A stretch of 58,285 nt of DNA from a virus (IMGVR_UViG_3300030207_002897:1-58285), one strand, 5' to 3'; shown: positions 38,120-44,536, counted from the first letter of the stretch. The notes: generated from the sequence alone by a model not told the origin. Numbers and translations: made by a program.

Positions 38120-38566
38120 ATGCAGCCAGCTGATTTCAATCCAGAGGGGCATTATGATAGAACCCCTAAATTCGATCCTAAGTTTGACCTTTATCGGCTT
38201 GTCCGCAATCCGTTTGGCGGGCCTCCGGGTCTCGGGCCAAGGCCCTCGCGAATACCTCAGTCAGATAAGGCTCCGGTTATAAGGGGAGGCTCTATCCCTG
38301 AGATTCAGGATGATATAGTTAATCGAGATCGCACTAGGATGGATAGGACGTTTAATGACGAATTCTCCATGCGGCACCACGGCAAAATGCCTGACGAGCA
38401 AGAGAAAGCACTTAAGCGTGAAGAGGAAGAGCAGCAAAGGCAGAGAGAAAATGACATTAGAGAGATGTCGGAATTAGATCGCCGCACTCCTAAGTATGGT
38501 AAGTTTGAAGGATTCCCTCTTCCACCAGGACCTAGACCACCAGAATGGAAAATTCCTAGAAGATAG
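38120..38566 (+). CDS. Pro/Arg-rich low-complexity protein
   Basis: 148 aa, SD AGGAG. Confidence 0.75.
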   Translation: MQPADFNPEGHYDRTPKFDPKFDLYRLVRNPFGGPPGLGPRPSRIPQSDKAPVIRGGSIPEIQDDIVNRDRTRMDRTFNDEFSMRHHGKMPDEQEKALKREEEEQQRQRENDIREMSELDRRTPKYGKFEGFPLPPGPRPPEWKIPRR

Positions 38567-38574
38567 AGAAGAAC

Positions 38575-39114
38575 ATGGCAAGACCGAATTATTCACAGAA
38601 ACTGCCGGAGCCTGAATACCCAGTAAACGTACCAGTCACTCCTGATGGGTTTGACCTGAACACCATGTTTCAGGCTGAGGGTCATATTCCCACTCGAAAG
38701 GATTATACTGACAATGAGATGTTTATCTGGCCGAATACGGGTGGGGCGTACAATGATCCTGACTATCTAGTACCCACTCAAATGCAAAAGGACACAAACG
38801 CACTAGAGCGGGCGCTGAACCCAACTGGTGAACATAGTCCTTCTAGCCAGGGTCCGTGGAATCCGATTGGTTCGGCTCACTATCCTAGCGGACTCCCCTA
38901 TGGTCATGTGCCTCCAGAAGATGCTTATGATAAAGATGGCTATGCAAAATACCCGTATCCAGTGCCAAAGCCTCGCAAAACACACAATAATCTTCCAAGG
39001 GAGTTTCCATTTAAGAATCGTATAGCTCCTCCGCCAGGTATAAGGATACCCGATAGGCTTCAGGGGCCTTTTGGTGATGACAGATTTAACGATAAGACAC
39101 CTAGGCAAAGGTAG
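38575..39114 (+). CDS. Pro-rich low-complexity protein
   Basis: 179 aa, tight packing. Confidence 0.75.
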   Translation: MARPNYSQKLPEPEYPVNVPVTPDGFDLNTMFQAEGHIPTRKDYTDNEMFIWPNTGGAYNDPDYLVPTQMQKDTNALERALNPTGEHSPSSQGPWNPIGSAHYPSGLPYGHVPPEDAYDKDGYAKYPYPVPKPRKTHNNLPREFPFKNRIAPPPGIRIPDRLQGPFGDDRFNDKTPRQR

Positions 39115-39120
39115 GCTGTA

Positions 39121-39339
39121 ATGCACTTTGGCAAAAAACACCGTCGCGAGCGGCGGCGAGACAGACGTAGGGATAGACGGGAGCCGGAAATGACTCCTGA
39201 GCTAGACTTAGACTTCGGACCAGGCGAATGGGAAGAAGCTCCTCCCTCTGACTGGAAGGACGATTTCGATCCTTATCTGCCTCACCCAGATGAGATATAC
39301 GTTAATACCAATCCAATAACTAGAGCCCTCTTAGGCTAA
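39121..39339 (+). CDS. Small bipolar protein (Arg-rich N-half, acidic C-half) ending NPITRALLG
   Basis: 72 aa, exactly fills the operon gap. Confidence 0.7.
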   Translation: MHFGKKHRRERRRDRRRDRREPEMTPELDLDFGPGEWEEAPPSDWKDDFDPYLPHPDEIYVNTNPITRALLG

Positions 39340-42566: not shown

Positions 42567-42581
42567 ACTGGAAGGTAAGAC

Positions 42582-43340
42582 ATGACCTCGAAGATGCCCA
42601 ACAGGAGAACTGATCCCAGAATAATAGATTTAATGAATAGAGCTAGGCGGAACCGAGGAACTGCTACTTGGGGTGACTGGGGTCAATGGAATCAACGACA
42701 TGCCCAGCGCGACAGGTACAATCGAAGCCGAGGGCGTGGTGGTGCCCAAACGACAGGCGCCTGGAATGATGGTCGTGGGTCAACTGTAGTCCAGCCGCAG
42801 CGTGGTGGTTTTTGGGCAGGCGATAGATCTAGGGGTATTCCAGGTGAATGGGATCATCTAAGAGGAGATGGTAGAAGTCGCCCTCGTCGCAGGCGACGTG
42901 GAGGACGAATGCACGAAGATGGCCCTGGTCGCTACGGAAGACGTAGGCCAACAGGTAGAGATCGGGGTAGAGACGGCGGCTGGGTTAGAGACGGCGGCTG
43001 GGATAGAGGTGGTGGCTGGGATAGAGGTGGTGGAGTCTTGGACGATCCAGCTCCATCTAGAAGGAGAAGAAAAAGAAAAGATCGCAAGAAGAAGAAGAAG
43101 CGTCGTAGCTCCAGCAAGACTATGCCTATAAGTCGCCGAACATTTGAGCAAGCACTTAATCGGTACGCACGAAGGGCACCACGAGACAATAGCCGCTATC
43201 GTCGTGATTTCTATGGACAAAATAGAAGTGATGTAGACTACAGTAGATTTCGTAGAGACTTCTTTGGTCACAACTTAAGACCTAAGCGAAGGCAGTTTGA
43301 TTTTAGAAGACGAGTTGGCCCAAGCAACTACGGCCGATAA
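42582..43340 (+). CDS. Extremely basic Arg/Gly-rich (RGG) protein
   Basis: 252 aa, SD AAGGT; RDGGW/RGGGW repeats and an RRRRKRKDRKKKKKRR run. Confidence 0.75.
   Translation: MTSKMPNRRTDPRIIDLMNRARRNRGTATWGDWGQWNQRHAQRDRYNRSRGRGGAQTTGAWNDGRGSTVVQPQRGGFWAGDRSRGIPGEWDHLRGDGRSRPRRRRRGGRMHEDGPGRYGRRRPTGRDRGRDGGWVRDGGWDRGGGWDRGGGVLDDPAPSRRRRKRKDRKKKKKRRSSSKTMPISRRTFEQALNRYARRAPRDNSRYRRDFYGQNRSDVDYSRFRRDFFGHNLRPKRRQFDFRRRVGPSNYGR
42969..43034 (+). repeat. Approximately four 18-bp tandem units encoding R(D/G)GGW(V/D)
   Basis: Read directly. Confidence 0.9.
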
Positions 43341-43360
43341 TATAAAAGAAAGAAAATAAT

Positions 43361-44536
43361 ATGTTTCCAGTACACCCTGATTGGTTTAAGAAACGTCAAA
43401 ACAAACGCCGCAGGAGACCTCCGACCCAAACTGATCCACCACCTTACGGTCGGCGAGGAGGAGGTAGAGGTCGAGTAGGTACAGGACTCGCTGGAGGTCG
43501 CCGAAGACCATCTGCTGGCGGCTTTGGCCCCGGTCCTTATGCTCCAGGGCGTAATAGAAATTGGAATGATTATTGGAATCGACGACGGCGAGTAGGCGGT
43601 TTTAGAAGGCCTGGCGGTAGGGGAAACTACGGAGCTGGAAACCGTAATCTAGGAAGATACGGCGGCGGACGTAGGGATATGGATCCAATTCCAAGAAGGC
43701 CAGTGGCAGGTGGTGGCGGCATGGGCGGCATGGGCGGAGCACCCAGACCTCCAGTAGCTGGTGGCGGCCAGCCTGGATTTGACTGGCGACGCTGGGGTGC
43801 TGGTCGTGGTGGGTATACAGATCATGCATTCAAGAAAAAGTTTGATGCCCATGAAAAGAAATACGGCAGAGGTTCTTGGGATAGGTGGAAATCAGATCCT
43901 AGTAAGGGTAAATACTGGAAGGGAATGCCGAGCTGGATGACTAACAGCATAGCTTGGGGCGAAGGAACTGCGGCTCCTACATGGCAGGATATGGGATATA
44001 AAGACGAAGACACTTTCAATAAAACTTGGAAAATGGGCAGGGACGGTCGAAGTTTAGTGCGAGCTAATAACCAGCAAATACTAGACGCAGGTTATGGAAC
44101 TTGGTGGCGTGGAAGGGCAGATGGCGGAGCACCTAAACCGCCACTTCCAGGTACCGCGCCGCACATGCCAGGACAACCTACGGCACCTCCGTCGCGTCCC
44201 CCAAGAAGACCACAGCCATGGGGCGCGCAAAACACTGGAGTGCCTCGCAGATCACCACGACGAAGAAGCCGAGTGCCTTATAACCAAAGAGGGTATGGAC
44301 GAAGATTCGATCGTTTCAGAAGAGGATTAGGTAGAAGAAGGCCAACTCCACCACGTCGATTAGGCGGCGGTCGTGGAGGACCTCGCCCTGGAGGAGGTCG
44401 TGGAAGGATGTCGGGATTTGCACATCCTTATGGCATAGCTCGACGCATGGGATACAAGGGAACCCTTGCGGAATGGATGCAAACAGAAGATGGCCAGAAA
44501 TACCAAAGAAACATTGACCGTGGCATAATGTATTAA
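43361..44536 (+). CDS. Arg/Gly/Pro-rich (RGG) protein with a Trp-rich central segment
   Basis: 391 aa; converges on the 44533 gene. Confidence 0.75.
   Translation: MFPVHPDWFKKRQNKRRRRPPTQTDPPPYGRRGGGRGRVGTGLAGGRRRPSAGGFGPGPYAPGRNRNWNDYWNRRRRVGGFRRPGGRGNYGAGNRNLGRYGGGRRDMDPIPRRPVAGGGGMGGMGGAPRPPVAGGGQPGFDWRRWGAGRGGYTDHAFKKKFDAHEKKYGRGSWDRWKSDPSKGKYWKGMPSWMTNSIAWGEGTAAPTWQDMGYKDEDTFNKTWKMGRDGRSLVRANNQQILDAGYGTWWRGRADGGAPKPPLPGTAPHMPGQPTAPPSRPPRRPQPWGAQNTGVPRRSPRRRSRVPYNQRGYGRRFDRFRRGLGRRRPTPPRRLGGGRGGPRPGGGRGRMSGFAHPYGIARRMGYKGTLAEWMQTEDGQKYQRNIDRGIMY

What the first reader, a model, noticed from the sequence alone, without database searches (positions are those of the whole stretch)
38120..44536. 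6.4-kb operon made entirely of Cys-free, low-complexity, probably disordered proteins, pairing a very acidic protein with two RGG proteins
Seen: seven consecutive co-oriented genes (2112 aa in total) with no cysteine and no enzyme motif I recognise. They are two Pro-rich proteins, a 72-aa basic/acidic bipolar peptide, a P/G/M protein, an 890-aa D/E/W/Y-rich protein and two R/G-rich proteins studded with W/Y/F. Proteins of similar composition also sit among morphogenesis genes (6506, 7170, 9308, 50710, 51375, 57345..669). Established: RGG plus aromatic composition drives phase separation in eukaryotic FET-family proteins, and podovirus ejection proteins are usually Cys-poor. Inference: a phage-encoded condensate or coacervate system (viral-factory scaffold, or DNA-condensing capsid cargo). 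Spending over a tenth of a phage genome on this is unusual.
Basis: partly seen in the sequence, partly recalled or inferred. Interest (0 to 1): 0.85.

Follow-up and report, generated by a model that had tools for sequence, protein, structure and literature searches.

The report
Charge-matched disordered protein cassette in phage
An uncultured marine phage spends 11% of its genome on a fast-changing set of cysteine-free, largely unstructured orphan proteins, including one very acidic and two very basic ones whose charges cancel; they probably work together, perhaps inside the virus particle, but their role is unproven.

Summary
Seven tightly spaced, co-oriented ORFs (38120-44536, 2112 aa) have no cysteine and no family match. 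They lie behind a conserved promoter-like site in a complete 58.3-kb uncultured marine phage.

They are real genes: dN/dS is 0.08-0.53, and indels in wild variants are in frame where countable.

"Low-complexity and disordered" fits ORF4, ORF6, ORF7 and ORF3. It does not clearly fit ORF5, which has normal sequence entropy, a C-terminal half under strong constraint (dN/dS 0.12-0.13) and two invariant EF-hand-type calcium loops.

New findings:
- The locus is a cassette hot spot. A sister genus has one gene there, other relatives four, and wild variants lack ORF1-2 or replace ORF2-4.
- Acidic ORF5 (-98) and basic ORF6+ORF7 (+108) balance. A 56%-identical relative shows -120 against +118, and a relative lacking ORF5 also lacks the arginine-rich proteins.
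- Two short motifs of ORF6/ORF7-family proteins sit, in the sister genus, on a protein encoded among the giant cysteine-free proteins of the tail-side structural module.

Best reading (about 0.35): charge-paired proteins carried in the virion. A cytoplasmic condensate and an anti-defence island remain open. No known family fits.

The parts
37498..38119 (+). Conserved non-coding region between the leftward replication-type genes and the block. It holds an invariant TATAAT (38078-38083) and AGGAG (38108-38112) just before the ORF1 start.
   Evidence: Alignment of 4 relatives: the last ~65 nt before the ATG are almost invariant; sequence read; no Rfam family. The simple sigma-70 scan did not call it because the -35 match is poor.
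38120..38566 (+). ORF1, 148 aa, Pro/Arg-rich, with a conserved C-terminal stretch (RENDIREMSELDRRTPKYGKFEGFPL).
   Evidence: Homologues in G001 (63% identity) and L012/L009/L007. dN/dS 0.43-0.53. Absent from a wild variant in run X10.
38575..39114 (+). ORF2, 179 aa, Pro-rich accessory cassette gene.
   Evidence: Absent from G001. 89-91% identical in L012 (89% by BLASTP; 91% over the aligned columns), dN/dS 0.23.
39121..39339 (+). ORF3, 72 aa, with a basic N-terminus and an acidic C-terminus.
   Evidence: 92% identical in L012, dN/dS 0.08. It is the first gene of the block in the X10 variant.
39350..39892 (+). ORF4, 180 aa, Pro/Gly/Met-rich; the lowest sequence entropy in the block (3.52 bits).
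   Evidence: No homologue in G001, G002 or L012. Present with small indels summing to multiples of 3 in run X10.
39894..42566 (+). ORF5, 890 aa, acidic (net -98, pI 4.2), rich in W/Y/F. An orphan family.
   Evidence: 6 homologues among 5.8 billion proteins. The profile search of 1.84 billion representatives found one cluster plus one weak hit. AlphaFold2 mean pLDDT 40, with helices at about 60-120 and 200-280 reaching 70-84.
41223..41258 (+). ORF5 EF-hand/dockerin-type 12-residue calcium-binding loop 1 (residues 444-455).
   Evidence: Pattern D-x-[DN]-x-[DN]-G-x-[ILV]-x3-[DE]. Present in 7 of 7 family members; 0.007 expected per shuffled ORF5. Sub-threshold Pfam Dockerin_1 hit.
42270..42305 (+). 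ORF5 calcium-binding loop 2 (residues 793-804).
   Evidence: its key residues are invariant in alignment A1.
41304..42563 (+). ORF5 C-terminal half (residues 471-890): strongly conserved and probably structured or binding-competent.
   Evidence: 79-82% identity to G001 with dN/dS 0.12-0.13, against 42% identity for residues 161-470. Long invariant runs in A1.
42582..43340 (+). ORF6, 252 aa, Arg/Gly-rich (net +48, pI 12.0; 5 RGG, 11 RG).
   Evidence: 9 clear homologues plus 2 weak.
42807..42866 (+). ORF6 motif A (FWAGDRSRGIPGEWDHL, residues about 76-95). It occurs once per genome. In the sister genus it lies on a structural-module protein.
42964..43033 (+). 18-nt tandem repeat (3.1-3.5 copies) encoding the GWDRGG-type repeats in ORF6.
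   Evidence: An in-frame 36-nt skip occurs here in run X10.
43032..43337 (+). ORF6 C-terminal basic region (residues 151-252). Nearly invariant, with a polybasic tract and two RRDF[YF]G[QH]N repeats. Probably binds nucleic acid (inference).
   Evidence: Alignment A4. 90% identity to G001, dN/dS 0.15.
43361..44536 (+). ORF7, 391 aa, Gly/Arg/Pro-rich (net +60, pI 11.8). Mosaic architecture.
   Evidence: AlphaFold2 mean pLDDT 45, with no secondary structure in residues 1-154 and 250-355. The Atlas's own model has pLDDT 0.43.
43778..44125 (+). ORF7 Trp-rich conserved domain (residues 140-255). It is also the N-terminal half of the 440-aa protein of L012.
   Evidence: 73-84% identity in 5 variants whose flanks differ. 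32% identity to L012 ORFX, single-comparison E 1e-10. pLDDT 51-69.
44423..44533 (+). ORF7 C-terminal helical mini-domain (residues about 355-391). Shared with G001 ORF7 but replaced by another tail in other variants.
   Evidence: pLDDT 60-84; alignment A3.
9308..9949 (+). 213-aa structural-module protein. It is a weak counterpart of the C-terminal part of the G002 328-aa protein that carries motifs A and B.
   Evidence: BLASTP, single-comparison E 2e-4. Same position upstream of the giant protein.

Best explanation
The block is a self-promoted, recombination-prone cassette locus of one small clade of uncultured marine tailed phages. It encodes orphan, cysteine-free proteins.

In this genome its core is a charge-matched trio:
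- ORF5, a large acidic, calcium-loop-bearing protein.
- ORF6 and ORF7, two arginine/glycine-rich polycations with small conserved domains.

I think these associate electrostatically at roughly equal stoichiometry. The acidic protein would keep the polycations soluble and off nucleic acid in the cell.

I further think they are most likely carried in the virion as internal (cargo or ejected) proteins. There the basic partners would contact the packaged DNA, and the extended, cysteine-free chains could pass the portal-tail channel. ORF1-4 would be exchangeable accessory cassettes of the same locus.

Shown: gene reality, purifying selection, composition, variable gene content, charge balance, motif sharing, calcium-type loops.

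Inferred: physical association, nucleic-acid binding, virion location.
For: Real, selected genes:
- dN/dS against G001 is 0.19-0.43, and against L012 0.08-0.53.
- In run X10 the indels whose size could be counted net to multiples of 3 (-54, -33, -36; 3 and 24 in ORF4).
- Promoter-like and ribosome-binding elements are invariant in 4 of 4 relatives.

Charge pairing:
- Window: ORF5 -98 against ORF6+ORF7 +108. G001: -120 against +118.
- Whole-block sums are -2, -2 and -1 in three versions of 2112, 1937 and 886 aa.
- L012 lacks ORF5, and its ORF6/7-like protein is nearly neutral at +4.

Virion link:
- Motif A of ORF6 occurs once per genome. In G002 it lies at the N-terminus of a 328-aa protein encoded between a 1278-aa acidic Cys-poor protein and a giant protein of more than 2170 aa, in the tail-side module. 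L006 has the same flanking residues.
- L004 ORF7 residues 234-327 match residues 4-109 of that same protein (single-comparison E 6e-9).
- The window's 213-aa protein at the equivalent position matches its C-terminal part (E 2e-4).
- Cysteine content is virion-like: 0.26% in structural-module proteins, 1.48% elsewhere, and 0 in 4678 aa of 5238-19286.

Other:
- The two EF-hand-type loops fit a protein exposed to calcium-rich seawater more readily than a cytoplasmic one. This step is inference from general knowledge.
- Apart from the 342-aa gene at 34476-35504 (36% identity), only the tail-end proteins diverge as much between window and G001 as the block does: 42-55% identity, where most genes are 90-100%.
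- Precedents, from passages read: T4 heads hold about 18 MDa of internal proteins mixed with DNA (PMC7697877). crAss001 stores about 5.5 MDa of cargo that must partly unfold to exit (PMC10172136). Podovirus ejection proteins are mosaic and swap domains (PMC8954989).
Against: - The block lies outside the head-tail operon. It shares a divergent intergenic region with replication-type genes, which suggests early or middle rather than late expression.
- There is no virion proteomics and no listed RNA data.
- No block protein has a membrane-spanning segment (maximum 19-residue hydropathy 0.91). The review passage read says such segments are conserved in gp14/gp16-type ejection proteins.
- No capsid-targeting signal or prohead protease was identified.
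- The motif links are short (17-20 and about 100 residues) and partly low-complexity.
- Calling 5238-19286 'internal virion proteins' rests on position only.
- Low cysteine is also expected of any disordered protein, so it is confounded.
- Charge matching rests on two lineages and an assumed 1:1:1 stoichiometry.
- G002 has an acidic 1278-aa protein (-74) with no arginine-rich partner.
- A T=7-size head with 58 kb of DNA would leave little room for cargo. The capsid size is unknown.
Confidence: 0.35

Rival explanations
1. Anti-defence or host-takeover accessory island, not in the virion. This would be a hypervariable early or middle locus. The polyanionic ORF5 would act as a nucleic-acid mimic or decoy. 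The arginine-rich proteins would bind host or phage nucleic acids or defence proteins. The cassettes would turn over in an arms race.
For: - The block has its own conserved promoter-like site, facing away from the replication-type genes and outside the late operon.
- Gene content varies extremely among close relatives and within populations.
- The ORF2-3 cassette is more similar between window and L012 (91-92%) than the flanking genes are (46-71%). This indicates horizontal exchange.
- The block is one of the few strongly diverged regions against G001.
- The families are orphans.
Against: - No match in PHROGs or Pfam. PADLOC-type libraries were not scanned.
- Known DNA mimics (recalled: Ocr, ArdA) are small folded proteins, not 890-1065 aa.
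- This reading leaves unexplained the conserved charge balance, the calcium loops and the motif sharing with a structural-module protein.
Confidence: 0.25
2. Cytoplasmic condensate or complex coacervate. ORF5 with ORF6/ORF7, possibly with nucleic acid, would phase-separate in the infected cell to organise replication, transcription or assembly.
For: - The net charges are opposite and matched.
- ORF6/7 are RG/RGG- and aromatic-rich: 5 and 3 RGG, 11 RG each, and 24 and 43 aromatic residues.
- Long stretches of ORF7 are predicted to be unstructured.
- The charge-hydropathy position is on the disordered side.
- Phage-linked phase separation has been reported for SPO1 and for a phage-nucleus RNA-binding protein (PMC13401047, PMC11077065; search listing and start of abstracts only).
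Against: - No direct evidence.
- The sister genus does without the system, so it cannot be a core replication scaffold.
- The conserved half of ORF5 behaves like a folded or specifically binding domain.
- Calcium-binding loops are odd for a cytoplasmic scaffold.
- The motif links point to the virion module.
Confidence: 0.2
3. Calcium-stabilised external virion appendage. ORF5, with helpers, would form a head or tail fibre-like decoration exposed to seawater.
For: - Two invariant EF-hand/dockerin-type loops, and a third in the insert of variant P0002.
- The only extra-family profile hit (E 8.9e-5 over 1.84 billion proteins) is to a serine/threonine-rich protein with about 20-residue 'ESLFDS' repeats. 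These resemble ORF5's two FDS-x-GNLNTSS repeats.
- The proteins are Cys-free, like the structural module.
Against: - P0007 has no family annotation.
- No beta-rich or trimeric fibre features were predicted.
- The reading does not explain the two polycations or the location outside the tail genes.
Confidence: 0.08
4. Non-functional or mis-called ORFs in a compositionally odd spacer.
For: No family matches. Low-confidence structure predictions.
Against: - dN/dS is well below 1 for every gene tested. Six of the seven were tested; ORF4 had no comparable sequence.
- The countable indels in wild variants preserve the frame.
- The 890-1065-aa frame is kept open in 7 of 7 family members.
- Translation signals are conserved.
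Confidence: 0.02

Closest known systems
T4 internal proteins (IPI, IPII, IPIII and other head-interior proteins)
   Same: - Non-enzymatic proteins carried inside the head, mixed with DNA, in large total mass. The passages read in PMC7697877 give about 18 MDa and about 1370 subunits, as a disordered ensemble with part of the genome.
- From recall, not from a call: the IPs are basic, acidic internal peptides accompany them, and their genes lie away from the main head genes.
   Different: - No sequence similarity.
- T4 IPs are small and use an N-terminal capsid-targeting sequence cut by a head protease. Neither was found here.
- Here one 890-aa polyanion balances two polycations of 250-390 aa.
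- Virion location is unproven.
Podovirus ejection (internal virion) proteins: T7 gp14/15/16, P22 gp7/16/20, and crAss001 cargo proteins
   Same: - Fast-diverging and mosaic, with domains swapping between neighbouring proteins (PMC8954989, passages).
- They must be at least partly unfolded to leave through the tail (PMC10172136, passages).
- Here, motifs A and B move between a structural-module protein (G002) and ORF6/ORF7-family proteins.
   Different: - Those proteins are encoded in the late structural operon, are mostly alpha-helical and foldable, and include membrane-spanning segments.
- The block is a separate operon, has no hydrophobic segment, and its polycations are predicted to lack secondary structure.
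Eukaryotic RGG/FET-type phase-separating proteins, and disordered polyanion-polycation pairs (recalled: prothymosin-alpha with histone H1)
   Same: - RG/RGG repeats interspersed with aromatic residues.
- Oppositely charged, probably disordered partners with matched charge.
   Different: - No RRM, zinc finger or SYGQ domain.
- Bacterial-virus context.
- ORF5 has a constrained, non-repetitive half and calcium loops.
- No evidence of droplets.
Dockerin type I / EF-hand calcium-binding loops
   Same: Two canonical 12-residue loops, invariant across the ORF5 family. Weak Pfam Dockerin_1 hit.
   Different: - The loops are 349 residues apart, not the adjacent duplicated pair of a dockerin.
- The score of 18.1 is below the 22.9 cut-off.
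- No cohesin partner is known.

Membership tests
FET-family / RGG phase-separating RNA-binding proteins | Clusters of RGG/RG repeats | tested here: met
   ORF6 has 5 RGG and 11 RG. ORF7 has 3 RGG, 11 RG and 18 GR.
FET-family / RGG phase-separating RNA-binding proteins | RNA-recognition motif domain | tested here: not met
   No Pfam family at E up to 0.1 for ORF6. Only a sub-threshold DUF5361 hit for ORF7.
FET-family / RGG phase-separating RNA-binding proteins | RanBP2-type zinc finger (needs cysteines) | tested here: not met
   0 Cys in all seven proteins.
FET-family / RGG phase-separating RNA-binding proteins | SYGQ-rich prion-like low-complexity domain | tested here: not met
   Leading residues are R/G/D/S/P (ORF6) and G/R/P/A/D (ORF7). 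The defining feature itself is recalled.
Podovirus ejection / internal virion proteins (T7 gp14-16 type) | Encoded in the late structural operon, next to tail genes | tested here: not met
   The block is a separate plus-strand unit between minus-strand gene sets. Head and tail genes run from 47605 across the window's ends to 19286.
Podovirus ejection / internal virion proteins (T7 gp14-16 type) | Membrane-spanning elements in gp14/gp16-type members (PMC8954989, passage read) | tested here: not met
   Maximum 19-residue Kyte-Doolittle mean is 0.91 or less in all seven, against a usual threshold of about 1.6.
Podovirus ejection / internal virion proteins (T7 gp14-16 type) | Mosaic exchange of modules with other ejection proteins | tested here: inconclusive
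   Motifs A and B are shared with the G002 328-aa structural-module protein. That this protein is an ejection protein is inferred from position only.
Podovirus ejection / internal virion proteins (T7 gp14-16 type) | Physical presence in virions and ejection into the host | not testable with these tools
   Uncultured phage. No cultured relative was found with the terminase or major capsid protein.
T4-type internal proteins | Basic proteins packaged with DNA | tested here: inconclusive
   Basic character is met: pI 11.8-12.0. Packaging is untested.
T4-type internal proteins | N-terminal capsid-targeting sequence removed by a prohead protease | tested here: inconclusive
   No protease family among the structural-module proteins scanned. 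Not every small ORF was scanned. N-termini vary between homologues.
Dockerin type I | Pfam Dockerin_1 at or above the gathering score, with two adjacent duplicated calcium-binding segments | tested here: not met
   18.1 bits against a 22.9 cut-off, one stretch. The two loops lie at residues 444 and 793.
EF-hand-type calcium-binding loop (motif level only) | D-x-[DN]-x-[DN]-G-x-[ILV]-x3-[DE] | tested here: met
   2 per protein in 7 of 7 family members, with 3 in P0002. 0.007 expected per shuffled sequence. Calcium binding itself is untested.
Complex coacervate / biomolecular condensate system | Oppositely charged multivalent partners at matched charge | tested here: met
   -98 against +108, and -120 against +118.
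Complex coacervate / biomolecular condensate system | Demixing into a dense phase | not testable with these tools
   Needs purified proteins or imaging.
DNA-mimic anti-restriction proteins (Ocr/ArdA type; features recalled) | Small, folded, highly acidic protein imitating B-DNA | tested here: inconclusive
   ORF5 is acidic (pI 4.2), but it is 890 aa, has no PHROG or Pfam match and has no confident fold.

The most novel reading that the evidence does not exclude
A phage-encoded, stoichiometrically charge-matched polyanion/polycation protein system. A calcium-loop-bearing 890-aa polyanion would chaperone two RG-rich polycations as a disordered electrostatic complex or coacervate. The complex would be loaded into the capsid with the DNA, or would form a compartment in the cell. 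It would be released or switched by the change in calcium and ionic conditions between seawater, virion and cytoplasm. The locus would evolve by cassette exchange while keeping its net charge near zero.
Probability: 0.2. Interest if true: 0.85.

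Novelty: new variant of a known kind. Interest (0 to 1): 0.6.

Why it matters
Internal and ejected virion proteins, and disordered proteins of phages generally, are among the least understood parts of phage biology.

A locus that keeps its net charge near zero while its genes are swapped, lengthened and shortened would be a natural example of selection acting on a bulk physical property rather than on a fold.

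If the trio is packaged, it would show a new way of handling DNA charge and protein delivery in a small tailed phage. If it acts in the cytoplasm, it would be a compact two-component coacervate system from a bacterial virus.

Either way, it offers orphan families with clear, testable predictions: binding, calcium dependence and virion presence.

If the function turns out to be ordinary accessory cargo, the finding remains a well-documented hypervariable island in an abundant marine phage clade.

Tried and rejected
Family and similarity searches that gave nothing useful:
- PHROGs and Pfam on the 7 proteins, on 6 relatives' proteins and on P0007.
- Megablast of the block against cultured phages.
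- tblastn of the terminase and the major capsid protein against cultured phages.
- PDB sequence profiles for the ORF7 family (0 hits) and the ORF5 family (18 ferritin hits at E 0.26-0.9, taken as chance).
- ESM Atlas for ORF5 and ORF7: no usable feature hit, and structural neighbours all at TM 0.24 or below.
- Rfam on the window and on the upstream region: only a chance snoRNA hit at E 0.61.
- tRNA scan: none.

Structure:
- Both AlphaFold2 models were low-confidence. I therefore ran no fold search, because matches would be meaningless.

Complex prediction:
- ORF5 residues 470-890 with ORF6 returned 'no answer' (score 0.00, controls not run). This is no evidence either way.

Expression:
- No RNA holder was listed among the sequencing runs. 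This is no evidence on expression.
- Parts of the block without contig cover in runs X7, X8 and X12 are not taken as absence, except where a contig bridges the gap (X10, 38112 to 39121).

Further relatives:
- Extra scans of viral contigs with ORF7, with the ORF6 alignment, and with the ORF5 and ORF7 alignments added no new lineages.
- The genome-contig scan with the capsid protein gave three MAG contigs. I examined two, and neither has a block within 10 kb upstream of the head genes. Their MAG labels are not taken as host evidence.
- The G002 181-aa gene at the block position is not detectably related to ORF1 (hhalign probability 1.7%).
- The simple sigma-70 scan found no more sites than shuffles do, and missed the conserved TATAAT. 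The 17-nt conserved promoter core has no second good copy in the genome.

Literature:
- Searches for phage operons of oppositely charged disordered proteins found none. This covers only the open-access library and those terms.
The virion mass-spectrometry tables of the cited papers were not seen.

- I did not use the look-up of encoding contigs, which was announced as closed. The contigs that carry P0001-P0025 could therefore not be paired to extend the charge-balance test.

Full report
**What the window is.** The 58,285-base window is a whole virus record that CheckV rates as complete.
- It has a recognisable major head protein, portal, large terminase, HNH endonuclease and a tail protein on the plus strand, running from 47605 across the window's ends to 19286.
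- Replication and recombination-type genes lie on the minus strand, 19283-37497: an SF2 helicase, a PD-(D/E)XK nuclease, a serine recombinase, a MoxR-like ATPase with a VWA/metallopeptidase partner, and a Peptidase_M19.
- Neither the terminase nor the capsid protein matches any cultured phage at E 1e-5.
- All 24 listed sequencing runs are labelled marine metagenome. Twenty rows from 9 studies hold at least part of the block, and six of them may be the source sample.

**The observation.** Seven plus-strand ORFs occupy 38120-44536 with gaps of 1-20 nt.
- There is no cysteine. Expected counts are 31 at the 1.48% rate of the non-structural proteins and 5.4 at the 0.26% rate of the structural-module proteins. 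All 23 homologues retrieved later are also cysteine-free.
- None of the seven matches a PHROG. Pfam gives only a sub-threshold Dockerin_1 hit in ORF5 and a sub-threshold DUF5361 hit in ORF7.
- No protein has a hydrophobic segment.

"Low complexity" needs qualifying. Entropy is reduced in ORF4, ORF6, ORF7 and the short ORF3, but ORF5, ORF2 and ORF1 are in the normal range. All seven lie on the disordered side of the charge-hydropathy boundary, unlike the median of the 46 other proteins.

**Are they genes?** Yes.
- Against the closest full relative (G001, 57.3 kb), dN/dS is 0.43 for ORF1, 0.19 for ORF5, 0.23 for ORF6 and 0.30 for ORF7.
- Against L012 it is 0.53 for ORF1, 0.23 for ORF2 and 0.08 for ORF3.
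- In an independent marine run (X10), contigs show indels in ORF4, ORF6 and ORF7. Where their size could be counted, they net to multiples of three.
- The roughly 65 nt before the ORF1 start, with TATAAT and AGGAG, are almost invariant in 4 of 4 relatives, although the rest of the intergenic region differs in L012.
- Short in-frame tandem repeats underlie the GWDRGG and GGM stretches.

**How conserved, and where.** The families are orphans of a narrow clade.
- ORF5 has 6 homologues among 5.8 billion proteins. A profile search of 1.84 billion representatives found one cluster plus one weak repeat-level hit.
- ORF6 has 9 clear homologues. The ORF7 Trp-rich domain has 6.

Conservation is very uneven.
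- ORF5 residues 471-890 are 79-82% identical to G001 with dN/dS 0.12-0.13. That is as constrained as the MoxR ATPase (0.12). Residues 161-470 are 42% identical and full of indels.
- The last 100 residues of ORF6 are nearly invariant. They hold a polybasic tract and two RRDF[YF]G[QH]N repeats. Its N-terminal part is replaced outright in some members.
- ORF7 is a mosaic. It has a variable arginine/glycine-rich N-terminal arm of 0 to about 400 residues, a conserved Trp-rich domain of about 115 residues, a variable proline/arginine-rich arm, and one of two alternative C-termini.

**Structure prediction.**
- AlphaFold2 gives mean pLDDT 40 for ORF5. Only the helices at about 60-120 and 200-280 reach 70-84.
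- It gives 45 for ORF7, with no secondary structure in residues 1-154 and 250-355, 51-69 in the Trp-rich domain and 60-84 in the C-terminal 35 residues.
- The Atlas's own model of ORF7 is equally poor.
- With alignments of 7 and 9 sequences, this supports disorder for the arginine/glycine arms. It cannot decide the conserved half of ORF5.
- ORF5 carries two canonical 12-residue EF-hand/dockerin-type loops. They are present in 7 of 7 members, with a third in one member's insert, where 0.007 is expected by chance.

**A cassette hot spot.** Gene content at this position differs among otherwise syntenic genomes.
- G001: most proteins are 90-100% identical to the window's, yet it has only ORF1, ORF5 (1012 aa), ORF6 (295 aa) and ORF7 (483 aa). 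ORF2 is absent from that genome.
- L012/L009: ORF1, ORF2, ORF3 and a 440-aa protein. That protein combines the ORF7 Trp-rich domain with the ORF6 motif, and there is no ORF5.
- G002, a sister genus (capsid and terminase 80% identical): a single 181-aa Pro/Gln/Glu/Arg-rich gene with no detectable relation to ORF1.
- Run X10: a contig joins 38112 to 39121, so ORF1 and ORF2 are missing.
- Runs X7 and X8: contigs that are 99-100% identical elsewhere leave the window's sequence after ORF1 and re-enter at the ORF5 start.
- ORF2 and ORF3 are 91-92% identical between window and L012, although the flanking genes are only 46-71% identical. That cassette has therefore moved by recombination.
- Conversely, ORF5-7 are far more diverged from G001 (45-57%) than most genes are. 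Only the tail-end proteins (42-55%) and the 342-aa gene at 34476-35504 (36%) compare.
- L001 and L004 are 99-100% identical in ORF1, ORF5 and ORF6 but only 83% in ORF7, with 74 gap columns.

**Charge pairing.**
- ORF5 is -98, and ORF6 and ORF7 are +48 and +60.
- In G001 the homologues are -120, +52 and +66.
- Summed over the whole block, net charge is -2 (window), -2 (G001) and -1 (L012). In L012 the ORF6/7-like protein is +4 and there is no acidic giant.
- Every structural-module protein but three is net negative.
- This is the strongest hint that the acidic and basic proteins act together at similar stoichiometry. It rests on two lineages plus one joint absence, and I could not pair further homologues by contig.
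- A complex prediction for the ORF5 C-terminal half with ORF6 gave no verdict.

**Link to the virion module.**
- The motif [FW][WY]AGD-x-S-x-GIPGEWDH occurs once in each of the 8 contigs held. In the window, G001 and L012 it lies in block proteins.
- In G002 it is at the N-terminus of a 328-aa protein. That protein is encoded between a 1278-aa acidic Gln/Gly-rich protein and a protein of more than 2170 aa, downstream of tail-protein homologues. The flanking residues in L006 look the same, though I did not examine its neighbourhood.
- A second stretch of that N-terminal region (G-[KR]-PMPP-x-NP ... W-x-W-[DN]-P-x-TRQW) matches L004 ORF7, with a single-comparison E of 6e-9.
- The window's own 213-aa protein, at the same place before the 1557-aa giant, weakly matches the C-terminal part of the G002 protein (E 2e-4).
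- So pieces of one structural-module protein of the sister genus are found on ORF6- and ORF7-family proteins here.
- The neighbouring proteins from 5238 to 19286 are themselves cysteine-free and glycine-rich. That they are internal or ejected virion proteins is inferred from position only.

**Reading.** The most economical account covers the charge pairing, the motif sharing, the virion-like lack of cysteine, the extended cysteine-free chains and the calcium loops. In that account, ORF5-7 are a charge-neutralised set of proteins carried in the particle, related by module exchange to the clade's internal proteins, and ORF1-4 are exchangeable accessory cassettes.

Known precedents come from passages I read:
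- the large disordered protein-DNA interior of T4 heads (PMC7697877);
- crAss001 cargo that must unfold to exit (PMC10172136);
- the mosaic, domain-swapping ejection proteins of podoviruses (PMC8954989).

Evidence against:
- The operon sits outside the late genes and faces away from replication-type genes.
- It has no membrane segments.
- No targeting signal or protease was found.
- There is no expression or proteomic data.

I therefore give this reading about 0.35. An anti-defence or host-takeover island gets about 0.25. It fits the hypervariability and position but not the charge balance or the motifs. It fits the charge and RG content but has no direct support and is dispensable in the sister genus.

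**Comparison and novelty.**
- The proteins belong to no described family.
- They resemble FET-type proteins only in RG/RGG and aromatic content.
- They fail two tested features of T7-type ejection proteins: operon position and membrane segments.
- They cannot be tested for the defining features of T4 internal proteins.
- In four searches of the open-access library I found no description of a phage operon of charge-matched disordered proteins. Phage-linked phase separation has been reported in other systems, which I saw only as search listings and the start of abstracts.
- I rate it a new variant of a known kind (phage accessory or internal proteins), with a real chance of being something more unusual.

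Noticed in passing
window 37498-38119: About 620 nt of non-coding DNA with long blocks identical to G001 and L004 and partly to L012. It includes a GC hairpin near 37808-37825 and a minus-strand terminator-like hairpin at 37900-37886. No Rfam family matches. It could be a regulatory region, an origin or an unknown RNA.
   Followed up: partly
window 38108-38122 and 39121; run X10 and X8 contigs: The X10 variant joins the ribosome-binding site of ORF1 to the ORF3 start through 5 other letters. An X8 contig shows the same site-spacer-ATG string after its ORF1. This suggests a reused cassette junction.
   Followed up: partly
window 38575-39339 versus L012 9050-9805: The ORF2-ORF3 cassette is 91-92% identical in protein to L012, while the flanking genes are 46-71% identical. 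This points to recent horizontal exchange of the cassette.
   Followed up: yes
window 9953-14626: A 1557-aa cysteine-free giant protein in the tail-side module carries an FtsK gamma (DNA-binding winged-helix) domain at residues 822-877.
   Followed up: no
window 5238-19286: Seven consecutive structural-module proteins (4678 aa) have no cysteine. Several are glycine-rich with low hydrophobic content.
   Followed up: partly
window 22206-23405; 30017-32792; 28700-29461: A Peptidase_M19 dipeptidase homologue, a MoxR-like AAA ATPase paired with a DUF2201 metallopeptidase/VWA protein, and a serine recombinase, all in a phage genome.
   Followed up: no
window 47511-47557: A strong 20-bp-stem terminator-like hairpin lies just upstream of the scaffold-like and head genes. 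It separates them from the exonuclease gene.
   Followed up: no
G001 19660-21726 (L016/L017): The 688-aa portal-proximal protein of G001 has one EF-hand-type loop. The window's homologue (57345..669) has none.
   Followed up: partly
window 44533-44536: The ORF7 stop overlaps by 4 nt the end of a convergent 65-aa minus-strand gene that is conserved in G001, L012 and G002. No terminator-like site lies between them.
   Followed up: no
P0007 (711 aa, database protein): A serine/threonine-rich protein with about a dozen ~20-residue repeats ending in 'ESLFDS'. It is the only extra-family profile hit of ORF5 (E 8.9e-5) and matches ORF5's two FDS-x-GNLNTSS repeats. It has no family annotation.
   Followed up: partly
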